This document shows, piece after piece, positions 1-24,000 of a DNA stretch of 64,000 nt. The first letter of the stretch is position 1. The number at the start of each line of letters is the position of its first letter. A program made the position numbers. The stretch is taken from contig CM074520.1 in the NCBI GenBank assembly GCA_037379345.1, positions 21,617,488-21,681,487 of the forward strand, written 5' to 3'. This stretch comes from Perna viridis (taxonomy: Eukaryota).

Positions 1-3000
1 CATTATCTTTAAAAAAAGAAAGCCGACGCAGTAAAATTTGTTTTTTTTTTTACTTATAATTTTCTACAGTTCATTCAGAAATTTGCACATGGCACACAAT
101 TTCAATTTTCTATATACTCTTTTTTTGAACACAACTAAGTTATCAGTATTTGGCCAATCGGGAAACAGAATTGTGATCAGATGACTCGCATTTCCAAGGA
201 TAATAAGCAAAACGATACCGACTGCGTCGGAAAAATAACTTTTTTTATACTAGACATATTATAGTGACATGCTATCATTGCTTCTTAATCAAGTCCAACT
301 GTGATTGATGATTTTTCTCTGATCATGCATTATGGAGGTTTAATGTTATTCAAAGATAAACCGAGAGAACAAATGAACTTTGATAAGCCAATAAGAATTT
401 GAGAATGAGGATGATACTCTTGCCTTGTTCAATAGTAAAAACTGTTGACCTAGTAAACAGTGCAGGTCTTCAGGAGTTATAATTTAAAATGTTACACTTG
501 ATCAAAAATAAAAACAAATGTATACTTAACTATAATAAATGTTTTTTAAATTTGTGATTCTAACCGTCTCTCTTTGTGTGTGGGACTGTTTGGAACTTAA
601 TTTCTGTTATATGTTCTGTAACCAATCATCACGTTCACTTTACATTATAAAAAAAGCCCTTTATTATTATGCCATACTGCTGAGCACAGTTATGTTTGAC
701 AGCTTATTTTTTGTAAAGATTTTTTTAACCAATGGTTTATATACATATTTCATGTCACTGTTTGCACTGATCTGAGAAGTCACTTGATAAATTCACATAA
801 CCTTCCCATTAGTAAGAAGTACAAACATTATCAAATGCTCTCTTTGAATAGTAATGTCATATGCATATTGCTTTTACAGATATAAAGAAAAATGTGAACA
901 CCAAATTATCTGCATGCAGTATGAAAAGCAAAAAGCTGCGGAAAATGTCAAAAAGTTATTTAATTGTCAGTTTGAAAGGGACGATGCTAAAGAAAAGGTC
1001 AAAAGTTTACAAAGTGATGCAAGCTATCTTAGAAACAAGTAAGTCAGCGTTACTTTCGAATTTGTTAAGAAATTTGAGAATAACAGTTACATATACCTGA
1101 TGTGGCCAACCTTCTTACCTGACTTGTATATATAGACGGTGAAGTGTAGCTTGTTTAGCGATTAGAATGAATGTTTCGCCCCTTCATATGTTTTTATTTT
1201 TGTTTTTGTTTTTATTTTCTGTAATTAAGTTTTCAGTTTATTTCATGCAGTAACACATGAAAGGAAAGTAGAAGAGATTGTGGTTAGGTCCTACATGCAG
1301 TGCCTGAATAGAACAAAAATACAGGTTTTATATTGGTAACATTGTCAGGAGGTATAAAGTGATCATGGCGACTGTGCTTTCCTCTGTCCCCTCCTTTTTG
1401 TTACATTTTCTGTGCAACTACTAATCTGATAGCCACTTAATATTTTGACAGAAGCTTTATATTATTGTGCCACATTTTGGGACATGATTTTAGACTCTTA
1501 ACAACATCAACTTTGGGTTATAAGGCTTCCTTCATAATTGGGGTTTATGGTTTGAATACAAAACTTTTGTTACAGTTGTTTCTCTAACTACTTATCACAG
1601 CAACTTGATATTTTGACACAAGCTTTATAAAAGTATGCCATATCTTATTTCTAACTCAGGCAACATCAAGTTACTGTTTGACAACTTTTTTTTACCATTT
1701 GGTTTGAATACAGTTATTCTATTAAATACCAGGAAAACTATGAACAATTNNNNNNNNNNNNNNNNNNNNNNNNNNNNNNNNNNNNNNNNNNNNNNNNNNN
1801 NNNNNNNNNNNNNNNNNNNNNNNNNNNNNNNNNNNNNNNNNNNNNNNNNNNNNNNNNNNNNNNNNNNNNNNNNNNNNNNGTTTTGCCCTGAGTAATTCAA
1901 AACTTATCTTTCATAGCATTTTAGTTAAATAGGTAAATTCCATGTTCATTTCTACAGAGTAACTTGTCAACTTTTTCTTACTTAAAGAACAAGGAGAGAG
2001 TCTCATGGCAATGAGAGAATCAATAGAGATATATAAAAGAGCTAATAACAACCAACAGAAATACATTTTAGAATTACAAAACATATGTGTAACATTGTTA
2101 TTGTCTTCATGATATATACTGTTAATGAATACTGGACATTCATGCAGAGGTTGATAAAAGGGGAATTGAGTTTTTAGTGGATGCTAAGAGCTCATTGAAA
2201 ACATTCATTTAAGTTCACCCACCCACTAAAAATACAATATTCCAGATTTGTGAACTATACACTTTCTAATTTAATTCGATATTAAAGCATTAACCTACTT
2301 GTTTTAAGTAGAAACGTGATGTTAATGCATGAGGCTATTTTTTGAAGTGACTATTGTCCTGTCCTGTATTTTACTAATACATCACATTGCTACAATAACA
2401 GTGTATTACATGTACATTTTTAATATTGTGTTGTGCATGATATTTTGAAAATTAACAGGGCCAGTCAACATGAGGATGAATTTGTGAAAGATGCAAAAAC
2501 AGCCATTGTTCACTACACAGCTAAAACCAAAAAGTACAAGAAATTAAGTAAAAAAGCAAAATCTGACAATTATAGATTAAAAATGGAAAAAGAGGAGTTA
2601 CAAACTCTTGTCCAAAAACTGAGGACTATTTCTAAGGAGGAGAAGGAGAAACATGAAAATGAAATTGACTCATACAATATTAAGATAAAACCATTAGAAC
2701 TATATAAAGTAAATTTCATCAAGACAATTATTGATGACGTCCCGTCCCTTGAAACATTACATGAAATGTTGCCCAGTTTGAGAATCATACTGTCATGGGA
2801 ATGGTAGTAATGGTTTTCATCAATGTTTTTTTACGAAAATTATCACAATTTTAAGCTGAAAATTCAAATAATTTCCAAATGCTTATAACCCCCCTCCCTT
2901 TGCCACGAGCACATAATTTTGGTTGATATTAGATTCTTTATGAACTATTGAGAGGTTCTTGCAGAAGGTGGTAGACTAACATCTACATGATCTGTGGTCC

Positions 3001-21000: not shown

Positions 21001-24000
21001 AAATAATGTAATCCAGGGAAAAAAAAAAGACATGGAAAACAGACATACACAACAAAGAACATTAAGTAACTCAAATTATACATACGAAGTAACAAAAGCA
21101 AATGAGCAACTCGGAATCCACTAAAAACTGGGAACATGGACCAGGTGCACCGGTAGGGTAAGCCTCCTCTGCTTTTCTAGAAACACCCACCGAGTTGCTC
21201 ATAAAAAGTCAAGTCCGAGGTAGACACACGAGGAAAAGGAAAACTATGACCCGTTGAATAAATCAGTTTTCATGGTGCAGATGGATACACCATAACGATC
21301 CACGACTTCATGATGATGACCATAAAACTGCTGTAGTGATGACTTCAATCTTGTAGCAACATAACCTTGTTCCAGAAGCCTATTTGTTAGAGTTCTAGTG
21401 TGATACAAAAAGTATGCGTAGTTTAGGCAAGCAAGCTCTGGCACAACGTATGAGTTGTAATATGAACACTCAGTCGCAGGTGCTGAAGGGATATCTGTAA
21501 ACTCTATTATCTGCTGTCGAACCTGTATAGGGACTTTTTACAATTTTATTGCTACTTTTGGGCACAGTAAATGATTAGTATATTATACAATTTAAAGGTC
21601 CACACGGTTACAAGGACAATGTCATACAATCATGTCAAGGTCACAAGGAGTAATCAATGGAAGCAAGATTCTAACGGAAATCAAAGGAATGTAATTCAGG
21701 GACAAATAACATACATGGAAATCAAACAAACACAACAGGAACATAACATAAACAAAATAGTACACACAAAAGTAAATGATTGGAATCAACTAAAAACTGG
21801 GAGCATGGACCAGGTGTAATAATTGCATATCTGTTTAAAAGTAACTCTTTAAAACGACTAAATGTCTATAGCGTATGATCAAGGTGGTCGGACTCTTGTA
21901 AACCTGAGTTCAAAGTGTAAAGCCCATCAAGAGGGTCATTTTAAACCTGCATGTATTTCTAATCGTTTTCTTGGCATCAAGGTCTGAACTTTCAGTAAGA
22001 AATTTCTTGCATTTTGTGATCTTTAACGTTGGATGAAAATGAAAGATCGCATGAACTGAAGGTAATTGATGACTGTACATGTCTTTATGATATCCAGTTC
22101 TAGAAATAACAATTATAAAAAAAAATAAGTATGATATGTAAAGCATATTACCCTGAAAACCGTTGATAAAATTTACATTTTTATGTTTATCTATAACATC
22201 AAAAAACCGCCAATAAAAGAGAGGGAACTTCTAAAAATGATGATGAAATCCTTACTATGGTCGTCCTGTACAACTTCAGAAGAGGGTTATTCGCTGGTTT
22301 ACACTTGGAAATGATATCTTGAAAATTGACGATGGGAGCCCATGACTTAATATTTAATGCTTTCACGAACAGTTTTGTCTTATATTTATTCCTTCATTGT
22401 CTATAGTTGAACTTTTGTTAAACTTGTAACACAAAACTATTAGACCTTTATCCACTGTTTTGCTGTGCCTTTCGTTCCATTTTAGTTGTTTCGGTATATC
22501 TTTTCATTGTGTTCACAATATATTGAATCTTACTGTTATAGAAAGACGCGTATGTTCTTATGTTACTACATCAAAATTCTTTAAAAAAAATTTTTTTTTT
22601 AGGAATTGTACCACCTGCACGACTGTGAATAAGGATAAACGACACACGTAAGTAATGTTAATTCGAATAACCACATGTTAGCTGATATTTTAAAATTCTG
22701 CATTTTTGCTGTTTCACGTTATACCTTCAATTTAATAATAAATTCATAAAAATTAAGTTCTTGCTTTTATCATTCTAGAACTGTTTATAACATCACTGCA
22801 CAAGCTGTGAGTTTTCCATCACAATGCAATTTCAACAGCAATGAGGTCGCTGATAAGTTTGCATTAGGAATAGTTGGTGGACCAAAAAACGAGCAGTTAG
22901 AGATCGAAGGCAATGGAGGAGAATCACTTATTTCAAGTTCCTAAAGTATGATAAAAACATACATTTTTGATCTATAATCAAGCCATTGTAATTTTATTTT
23001 ATATAGGACAACATTTGTCATACAAATAATGTATATTGGTTTGTTCATGGTCGTTTTTAATTTGAAAGGTCGGCGCTAAATATATTTTACTACGTAGTTT
23101 TGCCATTTTTAACTATTTATCAAAATAGTGCATGTGCTTTTCGAGAGTTTACATTGCAGACCGTATACGTAGCTATACACATGGGCTCACCAGGATCACT
23201 TGTTTTGAATGAAATAAAAACGAGAGACACTCACAAGTATTGTATGGGAAAATTTGTGTGTTATTCCTAAAAAAAGCTGCTTTATGGATTTGTTAAAACA
23301 ATTATGGAACTTGTATTAGATAATATAATTGTGCAACTGTTAGTTGTTTTGTTTATATAACTATAAATTCAATCTTGTCAAGACATTCACATCATTACTT
23401 AAATAGATGTTAAGAGGTACCAACGTTAAATGAGCAACCCTCCTTAACTACTGAACAGACATTTATCAACAAAAACATTGTTATAAGGTATAGGCATTAT
23501 GAATTTGCTGTTGTGATTCTGTAAAATAACTCATTTGTGGTTTCCATAAGGGTCGTAGGTACTTGTACTAAGGACAGTAAAGGGACCCACCTCTTAACTA
23601 CTCGATAGGTTTTTTATCAACTTTTAGGGAATGTTTATGAGGCATTGGCATTGTACATCTATTTATTGAATGTAGATGAGATACATTGGAATAAGAAGAC
23701 TATGCATATTAAAATCAAGCTTCTGGTTAGTTAACCAGATGGTTACATTAACATTTTATGATCTAACAGTAATTCTAGAAAGGATTAGAAACAAATGATG
23801 TAAATGTTTACGGTGTGATATTTTTGCTATTTCCACAGTGATTAGATAACCGCTAAAAGTAAAACTCGTGAAATTTATTTGTAACCAATTTTGTAATCAA
23901 TTTTTGAATCGGAGGTAATTTATACACGCAAAAAATGTTCAGAATGACAGATTCCGCAAAAATAAGCAACCGTTGAAATCGACATGTTTACTGTTTACCA

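What the first reader, a model, noticed from the sequence alone, without database searches (positions are those of the whole stretch)
880..22944. Unrecognised coiled-coil gene built from symmetric phase-2 exon cassettes
Seen: internal exons of 159, 96, 96, 93, 171, 102 and 45 nt (plus one of uncertain end at 2459) are multiples of 3 and enter and exit in phase 2. The paralogue's exons (90, 108, 324, 96, and a 95-nt broken one) follow the same rule. Established: phase 2 is generally the rarest intron phase, and symmetric exons can be skipped, duplicated or shuffled without frameshift. Inference: this is a modular, lineage-specific gene family able to vary rod length and the number of Cys modules by splicing or exon copy number. 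It could be a diversifying immune or scaffold adaptor family. I do not recognise the protein, and the ORF track misses most of these exons.
[Added by the scan's program, not by the reader: the finding's places include an assembly gap (unread letters, written N; its length is only estimated) at 1750 to 1879, 15195 to 15362. Whether the letters on both sides are continuous or in frame is not known: test that first.]
Basis: partly seen in the sequence, partly recalled or inferred. Interest (0 to 1): 0.72.

Follow-up and report, generated by a model that had tools for sequence, protein, structure and literature searches.

The report
Duplicated helical-rod gene, all phase-2 exons
Two neighbouring copies of an unnamed gene for a helical, probably pairing protein are built from exons that all split codons at the same point, so exons can be copied or lost without breaking the reading frame; this is a tidy but not unprecedented design, and no function is known.

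Summary
The exon coordinates, lengths and phase-2 entry and exit are confirmed for all seven named G1 exons and for three of the five paralogue exons. The 90-nt start exon exits in phase 0. The 5' exons (A, B and the 96-nt CxxC cassette) are real coding sequence. A second copy 47 kb downstream keeps them, with pN/pS 0.48 (p=2e-4) and a 17-codon in-frame indel. The cassette has been copied repeatedly: two identical exons plus three decayed copies. Exons from 15387 onward look coding by composition and phase, but they have no paralogue. They lie beyond a 10-kb repeat-filled interval that ends in an assembly gap, so their link to the 5' exons is unproven. Both copies have flaws: G1 exon B has lost its 3' end, and G2 lacks matching 3' exons. 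Exon B' is predicted helical and passes a homodimer test as a parallel in-register coiled coil. Pfam, PDB and Atlas name no family. Eukaryotic protein databases were closed and there is no RNA evidence, so splicing variation and an immune role remain speculation. The nearest known design is the Tetrahymena phase-2 exon arrays.

The parts
880..1038 (+). G1 exon A, 159 nt, phase 2-2; contains C-x5-C
   Evidence: Bounded by AG|..|GTAAGT. The paralogue A' is 78% nt identical over 35 codons and has a 17-codon in-frame gap.
1750..1879 (.). Assembly gap 1, inside the proposed A-B intron
   Evidence: The flanks 1694-1740 and 2032-2175 are collinear with G2 50321-50365 and 50522-50676.
1988..2086 (+). 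Doubtful exon X: an open frame conserved with G2, but in phase 1-1 in G1
   Evidence: Conservation runs about 90 nt past the putative donor (2032-2175, 79%), so this is probably conserved intron.
2459..2803 (+). G1 exon B, entered in phase 2; 3' end unresolved (250 nt to the GT at 2709 is out of phase; 345 nt to 2803 is in phase but the donor is weak)
   Evidence: It is 84% nt and 72% aa identical to B' up to about 2700. Homology then stops abruptly.
3882..3977 (+). G1 cassette C, 96 nt, phase 2-2, CxxC (CLKC)
   Evidence: Weak AAG acceptor, GTAAGT donor.
4055..4177 (+). Decayed copy of the cassette (psi-C), 226 bp downstream of C
   Evidence: 74% identical to 3829-3952. Its translation has stops and has lost the Cys pair.
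4976..5071 (+). G1 cassette D, 96 nt, identical to C
   Evidence: 0 of 96 mismatches in the exon, against 28 mismatches and 2 gap columns in 733 flanking columns. The duplicated blocks are 3351-4177 and 4443-5271, 96.4% identical.
5149..5312 (+). Decayed copy of the cassette (psi-D)
   Evidence: 73% identical to 3829-3993. tblastn E 0.003, with three stops.
6547..14749 (.). Large diverged inverted repeat filling most of the proposed D-E intron
   Evidence: Arms 6547-10908 and 14749-11457, 70-81% identity.
15195..15362 (.). Assembly gap 2, ending 24 nt before the acceptor of exon E
   Evidence: The left flank 15000-15194 is a copy of a 409-bp dispersed repeat.
15387..15479 (+). Exon E, 93 nt, phase 2-2; contains an in-frame ATG
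   Evidence: G at codon position 1 is 0.33.
16951..17121 (+). Exon F, 171 nt, phase 2-2
   Evidence: G at codon position 1 is 0.34. Predicted helices 11-41 and 44-55, pLDDT 87.8.
19686..19787 (+). Exon G, 102 nt, phase 2-2; charged and low in complexity
22603..22647 (+). 45-nt exon, phase 2-2, second CxxC (CTTC)
   Evidence: Poly-T acceptor and GTAAGT donor. It is one of 26 such 45-nt 2-2 candidates in 1-24000.
22779..22944 (+). Proposed terminal exon H, entered in phase 2, stop TAA at 22942-22944
   Evidence: G at codon position 1 is 0.37. One AATAAA/ATTAAA at 23213.
46722..46811 (+). G2 putative start exon (ATG, 30 codons); exits in phase 0; an alternative GT at 46778 gives phase 2
   Evidence: Both donors are weak.
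47838..47945 (+). G2 exon A', 108 nt, phase 2-2
50518..50574 (+). G2 doubtful exon X', 57 nt, phase 2-2, weak splice sites
52422..52745 (+). G2 exon B', 324 nt, phase 2-2
   Evidence: Predicted helical. Homodimer model passes the test.
55787..55882 (+). G2 cassette C', 96 nt, phase 2-2, CxxC (CMKC)
   Evidence: Only 59% nt identity to C, with pS 0.72.
56999..57093 (+). G2 broken cassette, 95 nt (CVIC), out of frame
   Evidence: similarity to C has z 6.8; 0 of 200 shuffles reach it.

Best explanation
The window holds two tandem copies, on the same strand and 47 kb apart, of a fast-evolving gene for a cytoplasmic helical rod protein. The rod most likely pairs as a parallel in-register coiled coil. 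Every coding exon I could define starts with the third base of a codon and ends after the second base (phase 2-2). Any exon can therefore be duplicated, deleted or skipped in frame.

Shown: the shared 5' exons are under purifying selection. The 32-residue CxxC cassette has gone through repeated local duplication and decay. Indels between the two copies are in frame.

Inferred: in a parallel dimer the CxxC pairs of the two chains face each other. By my own register reading, the second Cys falls on an 'a' position. The pairs could then clasp the rod through an interchain Zn(Cys)4 site or a disulfide.

Also inferred: 6 of 12 donors are GTAAGT in phase 2, so failure to splice gives an immediate TAA and a protein cleanly cut at a module boundary.

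Exons 15387-22944 are most likely the 3' half of the upstream copy, but that join is not shown. Each copy in this assembly has at least one structural defect, so one of them may be dying.
For: Paralogy. The copies share collinear blocks 340-2709 and 47350-52669, introns included, at 67-85% identity. tblastn of A, B and C against A', B' and C' gives E 3.6e-7, 4e-38 and 2.4e-7.

Coding constraint. pN/pS is 0.48 over A+B+C, with one-sided Fisher p 1.9e-4; the NG86 ratio is 0.41 over 148 codons. Exons are 78-84% identical and flanking introns 67-72%. The A/A' indel is 17 codons. C and D are identical at 96 of 96 nt while their flanks differ by 3.8%.

Phase. Each exon is open only in the phase-2 frame, except A in G1. 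In an unconditioned scan with splice and coding filters, 7 of 28 + strand candidates are 2-2, against 0 of 16 on the - strand.

Exons E-H. G at codon position 1 is 0.33-0.37. The 1084 control ORFs have a mean of 0.18 and a 95th percentile of 0.29.

Helix and dimer. AF2 models B' as helices 3-54 and 58-104, pLDDT 84.6. The two-copy model scores 0.55 against a best control of 0.00. That mark was reached by 21 of 30 proteins solved as pairs of one chain and by 0 of 23 solved as single chains. The runs agree in at least 95% of contacts, the partner pLDDT is 87, and contacts are in register (46:46, 50:50, 53:53) with 3-4 spacing from residue 11 to 103. The tool warns that its marks are from microbes and that a pass may be from memory of solved coiled coils.

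Heptad contrast. Shuffles reaching the observed value: A 20 of 300, B 13 of 300, A' 4 of 300, M1' 2 of 300.

The G2 start exon is charged rather than hydrophobic, read by eye. No signal-peptide predictor was run.
Against: There is no transcript evidence at all.

G1 exon B loses homology at about 2700 and has no good in-phase donor. The G2 start exon exits in phase 0. G2 has no detectable counterpart of exons E-H, and no coding-like 2-2 candidate lies downstream of 57100.

The heptad test is not significant for B' (74 of 300), C (36 of 300), C' (71 of 300), E (231 of 300), F (239 of 300) or H (291 of 300).

The C and D acceptors are poor (AAG, score -3.1).

A pN/pS of about 0.5 is what one live and one dead copy would give. 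Exons other than the cassette show no mutual similarity, so an origin by serial duplication of one 2-2 exon is not shown.

Zinc or disulfide clasping is pure inference.
Confidence: 0.6

Rival explanations
1. There are two separate transcription units. One is a short 5' coiled-coil gene (exons A-D). The other is an unrelated downstream gene (exons E-H) that merely shares strand and phase.
For: G2 duplicates only the A-C part and has nothing like E-H. A 10.3-kb interval full of repeats and a 4.3-kb-arm inverted repeat separates D from E, and it ends in an assembly gap whose continuity is untestable. Exon E carries an in-frame ATG. E, F and H show no heptad signal. Read-through after C or D stops at once (TAA), so a short product is possible.
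Against: Exon E has one of the best acceptors in the set (score 4.1) and is entered in phase 2, so it needs an upstream coding exon that ends in phase 2, which is exactly how D ends. No other coding-like candidate exon lies on the + strand between 5072 and 15386. Two unrelated neighbours both built only of 2-2 exons would be a coincidence, given about 21% phase-2 introns in human (PMC3632108, passage in section 14).
Confidence: 0.3
2. One or both copies are pseudogenes in decay. The clean phase pattern is then a relic of a once-functional gene.
For: G1 exon B is truncated by a rearrangement at about 2700. The conserved block X is out of phase in G1. G2 has a phase-incompatible start exon, a 95-nt frame-broken cassette and no 3' exons. 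Three decayed cassettes are present. A pairwise pN/pS near 0.5 fits one neutral and one constrained lineage.
Against: No stop codon or frameshift lies inside any of the well-defined exons of either copy. C and D are identical while their introns differ (chance about 0.02 at the flank rate, my arithmetic). pN/pS is significantly below 1.
Confidence: 0.25
3. One reading: a diversifying immune or scaffold adaptor family that varies rod length and Cys-module number by alternative splicing and exon copy number.
For: Cassette copy number has changed. C and C' are far more diverged than A/A' or B/B' (59% against 78-84% nt identity), which suggests cassette turnover. Weak cassette acceptors are typical of skipped exons. 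Evolution is fast (aa identity 48-72%).
Against: No immune or adaptor domain was found: 0 of 10 exon peptides reach a Pfam cut-off. PDB gave nothing below E 0.07 in 4 searches, and the Atlas gave only generic coiled-coil look-alikes below its recognition mark. pN/pS is below 1, not above. There are no transcripts, and only two copies were seen.
Confidence: 0.08
4. The C/D tandem duplication is an assembly artefact: two haplotypes of one heterozygous locus laid side by side.
For: 96.4% identity over 829 bp is within the range of allelic divergence in highly polymorphic invertebrates. That range is my recollection and was not checked.
Against: No N gap or contig end lies at the junction. The copies are separated by 265 bp of unique sequence (4178-4442). 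The older cassette copies, 73-74% identical, show that this locus does duplicate.
Confidence: 0.15
5. These are chance open frames with chance AG and GT sites in AT-rich DNA.
For: ORFs of 40 or more codons are common here (217 in 24 kb). A scan using splice sites alone gives 78 candidates of 90-330 nt in the window. There are 26 candidate 45-nt 2-2 exons. Charged 20-residue stretches occur in 44 of 2129 ORFs, and only 8 of those are the proposed exons.
Against: Paralogue conservation with pN/pS below 1 and in-frame indels supports A-C. E, F and G are 3 of the 5 most coding-like of the 78 candidates, they are adjacent, and all are 2-2.
Confidence: 0.03

Closest known systems
Tetrahymena LRR genes with tandem arrays of 90-bp exons separated by phase-2 introns (PMC6564038; abstract and passages of sections 4, 9, 12, 23 read)
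   Same: Exons are flanked on both sides by phase-2 introns. A junction codon is shared between neighbouring exons. The family is young and fast-evolving, and it expands by exon duplication.
   Different: There the exons are exactly 90 bp, clonally related, encode LRRs and number in the tens of thousands. Here exon lengths range from 45 to 345 nt. Only the 96-nt cassette shows copies. The protein is helical with no LRR. Only two genes were seen, and the host looks like an animal, not a ciliate.
Same-phase cassette exons at the 5' end of troponin T, TNNT3 (PMC2447309; abstract passage read)
   Same: A protein with a heptad region has a run of small exons of one phase class. The authors read this as exon shuffling that allows combinatorial inclusion.
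   Different: In TNNT3 alternative splicing is documented, and only the 5' mini-exons share a phase class. Here splicing is unknown and all exons share one phase.
Rad50 zinc hook (PMC5093744; search listing and start of abstract only)
   Same: A CxxC motif is embedded in a long coiled coil, and two chains could share one Zn(Cys)4.
   Different: In Rad50 the hook sits at the apex of an antiparallel intramolecular coiled coil between ATPase halves (recalled). Here there is no ATPase domain, the predicted pairing is parallel (for exon B', not the cassette), and zinc binding is untested.
General exon-phase symmetry and modular evolution (PMC3632108; passages of sections 5 and 14 read)
   Same: Symmetric exons permit in-frame insertion, duplication and skipping.
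   Different: In human, phase 2 is the rarest phase (21.07% of introns), and the 2-2 class is the one whose excess was not significant. A gene built only of 2-2 exons is at the unusual end of that distribution.

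Membership tests
Genes built of symmetric same-phase cassette exons | Internal exon lengths are multiples of 3 | tested here: met
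   Seven of 8 G1 internal exons qualify (159, 96, 96, 93, 171, 102, 45); exon B is unresolved. In G2, the 108, 57, 324 and 96 nt exons qualify and the 95 nt exon is broken.
Genes built of symmetric same-phase cassette exons | The same intron phase on both sides of each exon | tested here: met
   Phase 2 holds at every defined boundary. The exception is the G2 90-nt start exon, which exits in phase 0.
Genes built of symmetric same-phase cassette exons | Evidence of exon duplication or loss in frame | tested here: met
   C and D are duplicates, there are two psi copies plus a broken copy, and A/A' differ by a 17-codon indel.
Genes built of symmetric same-phase cassette exons | Alternative inclusion of cassettes in transcripts | not testable with these tools
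Tetrahymena-type clonal phase-2 exon arrays | Uniform exon length and mutual sequence similarity of the exons | tested here: not met
   Lengths range from 45 to 345 nt. Of 78 exon pairs, only 6 exceed z 3. Three of these are A/A', B/B' and C/C', one is C against the broken cassette, and two are weak short matches.
Tetrahymena-type clonal phase-2 exon arrays | LRR-coding exons | tested here: not met
   None of the 10 exon peptides has an LRR hit in Pfam.
Parallel dimeric coiled coil | Long uninterrupted helices | tested here: met
   AF2 gives B' helices 3-54 and 58-104 at pLDDT 84.6, and F helices 11-41 and 44-55 at pLDDT 87.8. Both are single-sequence models of single exons.
Parallel dimeric coiled coil | Heptad a/d hydrophobic periodicity | tested here: inconclusive
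   In my own crude contrast test, shuffles reaching the observed value were A 20, B 13, A' 4 and M1' 2 of 300, but B' 74, C 36, C' 71, E 231, F 239 and H 291 of 300.
Parallel dimeric coiled coil | Self-association in register | tested here: met
   The model scores 0.55 against a best control of 0.00. The mark was reached by 21 of 30 proteins solved as pairs of one chain and 0 of 23 solved as single chains. Contact agreement is at least 95% and pLDDT is 87. This is a model's confidence, not a measurement, and it may reflect memory of solved coiled coils.
Rad50/SMC-type zinc hook | CxxC within a coiled coil | tested here: met
   CLKC in C and D, CMKC in C', CVIC in the broken cassette, CTTC in the 45-nt exon.
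Rad50/SMC-type zinc hook | ABC ATPase head domains flanking the coil | tested here: not met
   No such Pfam match in any of the 10 exon peptides. This was searched exon by exon only.
Rad50/SMC-type zinc hook | Zinc-dependent dimerisation | not testable with these tools
   This needs a metal-binding assay.
Known immune adaptor families (TRAF, death-fold, TIR and the like) | A recognisable signature domain | tested here: not met
   0 of 10 exon peptides reach a Pfam curated cut-off. The best is Hac8_like_N at 21.8 bits against a cut-off of 27. A domain split across exons could be missed, because the joined protein was not searched.
Retrotransposon ORF1-type coiled-coil protein | Intronless ORF next to a reverse transcriptase on the same strand | tested here: not met
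   The coding sequence is split by introns that are conserved between the copies. The only RT match lies on the opposite strand at 27280-27765.

The most novel reading that the evidence does not exclude
An animal gene family in which every coding exon is a phase 2-2 cassette and most donors are GTAAGT. Skipping, duplicating or failing to splice at any junction would then always give an in-frame, cleanly terminated product. The result would be a dimeric rod of programmable length, whose CxxC cassettes act as interchain zinc or disulfide clasps, with a module number that varies between paralogues, alleles and isoforms.
Probability: 0.12. Interest if true: 0.65.

Novelty: new member of a known kind. 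Interest (0 to 1): 0.35.

Why it matters
If transcripts confirm the model, this would be a compact animal example of a gene assembled only from phase 2-2 exons. Phase 2 is the rarest class: 21% of human introns (PMC3632108). At that rate, eight independent boundaries all in phase 2 would have a chance of about 4e-6 (my arithmetic). The locus also shows live evidence of cassette birth and death at one site. It could serve as a small model for how exon symmetry lets helical rod proteins change length, and for whether CxxC pairs inside a coiled coil work as interchain clasps. As the evidence stands, it is an unannotated, fast-evolving gene pair of unknown function. It is useful for annotating this genome but not surprising in kind.

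Tried and rejected
Family searches, each done exon by exon. Pfam on 10 exon peptides at E up to 10 gave nothing at a curated cut-off. Pfam on the 345-nt version of exon B, the G2 start exon and 7 neighbouring ORFs gave nothing. PDB sequence search of B', F, H and A gave a best E of 0.072. The Atlas search of B' fell below the recognition mark (1748 against 2300), and its rows were generic coiled-coil or unnamed clusters. The Atlas search of F gave no usable hit. Foldseek of the B' model against PDB found 0 of 341 matches at E 0.001 or better.

A scan of bacterial and archaeal genomes with B' matched 160 pattern stretches, and none was confirmed. Rfam and tRNA scans of the window found nothing.

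I looked for the missing 3' part of exon B in G1 and found none. I looked for E-H relatives anywhere else in the window and found none below E 0.3. I looked for similarity among non-paralogous exons and found only two weak short matches.

A splice-site-only scan gave no excess of 2-2 candidates: 6 on the + strand and 7 on the - strand. The excess appears only once a coding-composition filter is added.

Exon X (1988-2086 and 50518-50574) was rejected as a firm exon. It is out of phase in G1, and its conservation runs on into the intron.

Literature. Searches found no paper describing an all-phase-2 coiled-coil gene. The nearest papers are listed under Closest known systems.

Full report
WHAT THE WINDOW IS. 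The window has 29-39% G+C per 2 kb. It contains two N runs, 1750-1879 and 15195-15362, and no Rfam or tRNA match. It is crowded with repeats. A 409-bp dispersed element occurs at 14 places. A LINE-like element lies on the minus strand, with an RVT_1 match at E 2e-11 for 27280-27765. There is a 411-bp satellite. It reads like an AT-rich invertebrate genome; that is my impression and no call shows it.

CHECK OF THE OBSERVATION. I read each proposed exon boundary in the sequence. The boundaries are 880-1038 (159 nt), 3882-3977 (96), 4976-5071 (96), 15387-15479 (93), 16951-17121 (171), 19686-19787 (102), 22603-22647 (45) and the terminal 22779-22944. Each follows an AG, and each except the last precedes a GT. 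Each is open only in the frame where its first base is the third base of a codon. The exception is exon A, which is also open in phase 1, but its paralogue is open in phase 2 only. No junction codon is a stop.

In the paralogue, 47838-47945 (108 nt), 52422-52745 (324) and 55787-55882 (96) behave the same way.

Two points do not hold. First, the 90-nt exon runs from an ATG at 46722 to 46811 and so exits in phase 0, which cannot feed the phase-2 entry of the next exon. Only a weak GT at 46778 would give phase 2. Second, the exon at 2459 has no good in-phase donor. The GT at 2709 gives 250 nt, and the 7 in-phase GTs among 14 are all weak.

THE ASSEMBLY GAPS. Neither gap interrupts a proposed exon, so no reading frame crosses an N run. 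Gap 1 lies in the A-B intron. The sequence on its two sides matches the second gene copy in the same order and orientation (1694-1740 with 50321-50365, and 2032-2175 with 50522-50676), which supports continuity. I did not use the copy to infer the missing letters. Gap 2 ends 24 nt before the acceptor of exon E. Its left edge is the near-end of a repeat copy (15000-15194), and there is no paralogue to compare. The join between everything up to 5071 and everything from 15387 therefore rests on the scaffold alone.

IS IT MORE THAN CHANCE? Open frames are cheap in this DNA: there are 217 ORFs of 40 or more codons in 24 kb. A scan using splice sites alone gives 6 2-2 candidates on the + strand and 7 on the - strand, and 78 candidates of 90-330 nt in all. 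There are 26 candidate 45-nt 2-2 exons in 1-24000. The evidence must come from elsewhere.

(a) Exons A, B and C have a second copy 47 kb downstream. tblastn gives E 3.6e-7, 4e-38 and 2.4e-7, inside a collinear duplication that includes introns (340-2709 with 47350-52669). Exons are 78-84% identical and introns 67-72%. pN/pS is 0.48 with Fisher p 1.9e-4, and the NG86 ratio is 0.41 over 148 codons. The one large indel is exactly 17 codons.

(b) Exons E, F, G and H have no paralogue. They do carry a coding signature. G at codon position 1 is 0.33-0.37, against a mean of 0.18 and a 95th percentile of 0.29 in 1084 control ORFs. Among the 78 splice-defined candidates, only 5 reach 0.33. Three of those are E, F and G, which are adjacent, on one strand and all 2-2. 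With both filters, 7 of 28 + strand candidates are 2-2 against 0 of 16 on the - strand.

(c) There is a bias to keep in mind. In phase 2 a GTAAGT donor reads xxG TAA, so the ORF stops 4 nt past the exon. This applies to 6 of 12 exons (A, C, D, G, the 45-nt exon and A'). Such exons stand out to anyone reading ORFs. The same effect is described for yeast introns in PMC2911113 (section 7 passage).

ANATOMY OF THE CASSETTE REGION. Cassettes C and D sit in a tandem duplication, 3351-4177 and 4443-5271, 96.4% identical. The two exons are identical at 96 of 96 nt. The 733 flanking columns carry 28 mismatches and 2 gap columns. Each is followed 226 bp later by a decayed copy (4055-4177 and 5149-5312, 73-74% identical) that has stops and has lost the Cys pair.

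In G2 the cassette C' is only 59% identical to C at the nucleotide level, with pS 0.72 against about 0.29 for A+B. It looks like an older cassette paralogue rather than the direct counterpart. A further frame-broken copy lies 1.2 kb downstream. So this one module has been born and lost several times.

DEFECTS. In G1, homology of exon B to B' stops at about 2700. The last 25 or so codons of B' have no counterpart anywhere in G1. The conserved block at 1988-2086 is open in phase 1-1 in G1 and 2-2 in G2, but its conservation runs 90 nt beyond the putative donor, so I treat it as intron. G1's own first exon would lie upstream of the window start. G2 has the phase problem at its start exon, the broken cassette, and no E-H-like exons before the window ends. 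Either copy, or both, may be non-functional in this assembly. A pairwise pN/pS near 0.5 would fit one live and one dead copy.

WHAT THE PROTEIN IS. The joined, spliced protein was not assembled for any search or fold, so a domain split across exons could have been missed.

None of 10 exon peptides reaches a Pfam cut-off. Four PDB searches give nothing better than E 0.072. The Atlas gives only generic coiled-coil look-alikes for B', below its recognition mark, and nothing for F. Foldseek gives 0 of 341 matches at E 0.001 or better. No relative exists in the prokaryote genome set.

The tools that could reach eukaryotic proteomes were closed (search for homologous proteins, the search of protein representatives, metagenome and viral contigs). 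Supplementary files of the cited papers were not seen.

STRUCTURE AND LIKELY MECHANISM. B' is modelled as two long helices at pLDDT 84.6, and F as helices at pLDDT 87.8. Two copies of B' give a score of 0.55 against a best control of 0.00. That mark was reached by 21 of 30 proteins solved as pairs of one chain and by 0 of 23 solved as single chains. Contact agreement is at least 95% and partner pLDDT is 87. The contacts are in register (46:46, 50:50, 53:53, 78:78) with 3-4 spacing from residue 11 to 103. That is a parallel dimeric coiled coil. The tool cautions that its marks come from microbes and that such a pass may be from memory of solved coiled coils.

My crude heptad test supports A, B, A' and the G2 start exon (2 to 20 of 300 shuffles reach the observed value). 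It does not support B', C, C', E, F or H. 'Coiled coil' is thus reasonable for the 5' half and unshown for the 3' half.

The G2 start exon is charged, not hydrophobic (by eye), so I take the protein as cytoplasmic. From here on it is inference. In a parallel in-register dimer the two CxxC pairs of a cassette would face each other, giving four thiols for an interchain zinc site or a disulfide. That would be a clasp like the Rad50 hook in chemistry (PMC5093744, listing and abstract start only), but not in architecture.

COMPARISON WITH WHAT IS KNOWN. Same-phase symmetric exons as a route to modular change are textbook. In human, introns are 46.28% phase 0, 32.65% phase 1 and 21.07% phase 2 (PMC3632108, section 14 passage). 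The closest described case of phase 2-2 arrays is the Tetrahymena 90-bp LRR exon family (PMC6564038). This locus shares with it the phase and the shared junction codon, but not the uniform length, the clonal similarity or the LRR. Troponin T's same-phase 5' cassettes (PMC2447309 abstract) are the nearest analogue in function, and there splicing is documented. Three literature searches turned up no all-phase-2 coiled-coil gene. That shows only that these searches found none.

VERDICT. This is a real, unnamed, fast-evolving tandem gene pair with a genuinely uniform phase-2 exon design and demonstrable cassette turnover. The single-gene model across gap 2, any splicing variation and any immune role remain unproven. 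I file it as a new member of a known kind, of moderate interest.

Noticed in passing
window 6547-10908 and 11457-14749: There is a large inverted repeat with about 4.3-kb arms at 70-81% identity and a 550-bp spacer. It fills most of the proposed 10.3-kb D-E intron. It is too diverged to be a palindromic read artefact. In a pre-mRNA it could fold and bring D and E close together.
   Followed up: partly
window, 14 places, e.g. 17192-17600, 49529-49946, 3013-3352(-), 61374-61582(-): A dispersed SINE- or MITE-like element of about 409 bp lies mostly inside the introns of both gene copies. One copy abuts the left edge of assembly gap 2 (15000-15194).
   Followed up: partly
window 26385-29400 (-): A LINE-like retroelement lies between the two gene copies. 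The ORF 27280-27765(-) matches RVT_1 at E 2.2e-11. Neighbouring ORFs have no Pfam match.
   Followed up: partly
window 24792-26072: A 411-bp tandem repeat with 3.1 copies at 97% identity sits in the one G+C-richer stretch of the window (0.39).
   Followed up: no
window 44288-44384 (+): This candidate exon looks coding (phase 0-1, G at codon position 1 of 0.34, peptide with GIDKEELKTKK). It lies 2.3 kb upstream of the G2 ATG exon. It could be an upstream exon of G2 or of another gene. It has no Pfam match.
   Followed up: partly
window 20043-20115 and 20183-20230 (-): Two minus-strand candidate exons with very strong donors (scores 6.5 and 7.6) lie inside the proposed G-to-45-nt intron. They have no Pfam match. 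They may belong to an antisense or nested gene, or to a repeat.
   Followed up: partly
window 970-1000 and 46750-46778: The 17-codon stretch present in exon A but absent from A' has a short similarity to the G2 start exon: ERDDAKEK against ERDEAREK, 21 of 28 nt. The G2 match ends exactly at the alternative phase-2 GT. This hints at an internal repeat or an exon rearrangement.
   Followed up: partly
window 8136-8554 and 14052-14323: Short tandem arrays of 157-bp and 152-bp units (74-78% matches) lie in the two arms of the large inverted repeat.
   Followed up: no
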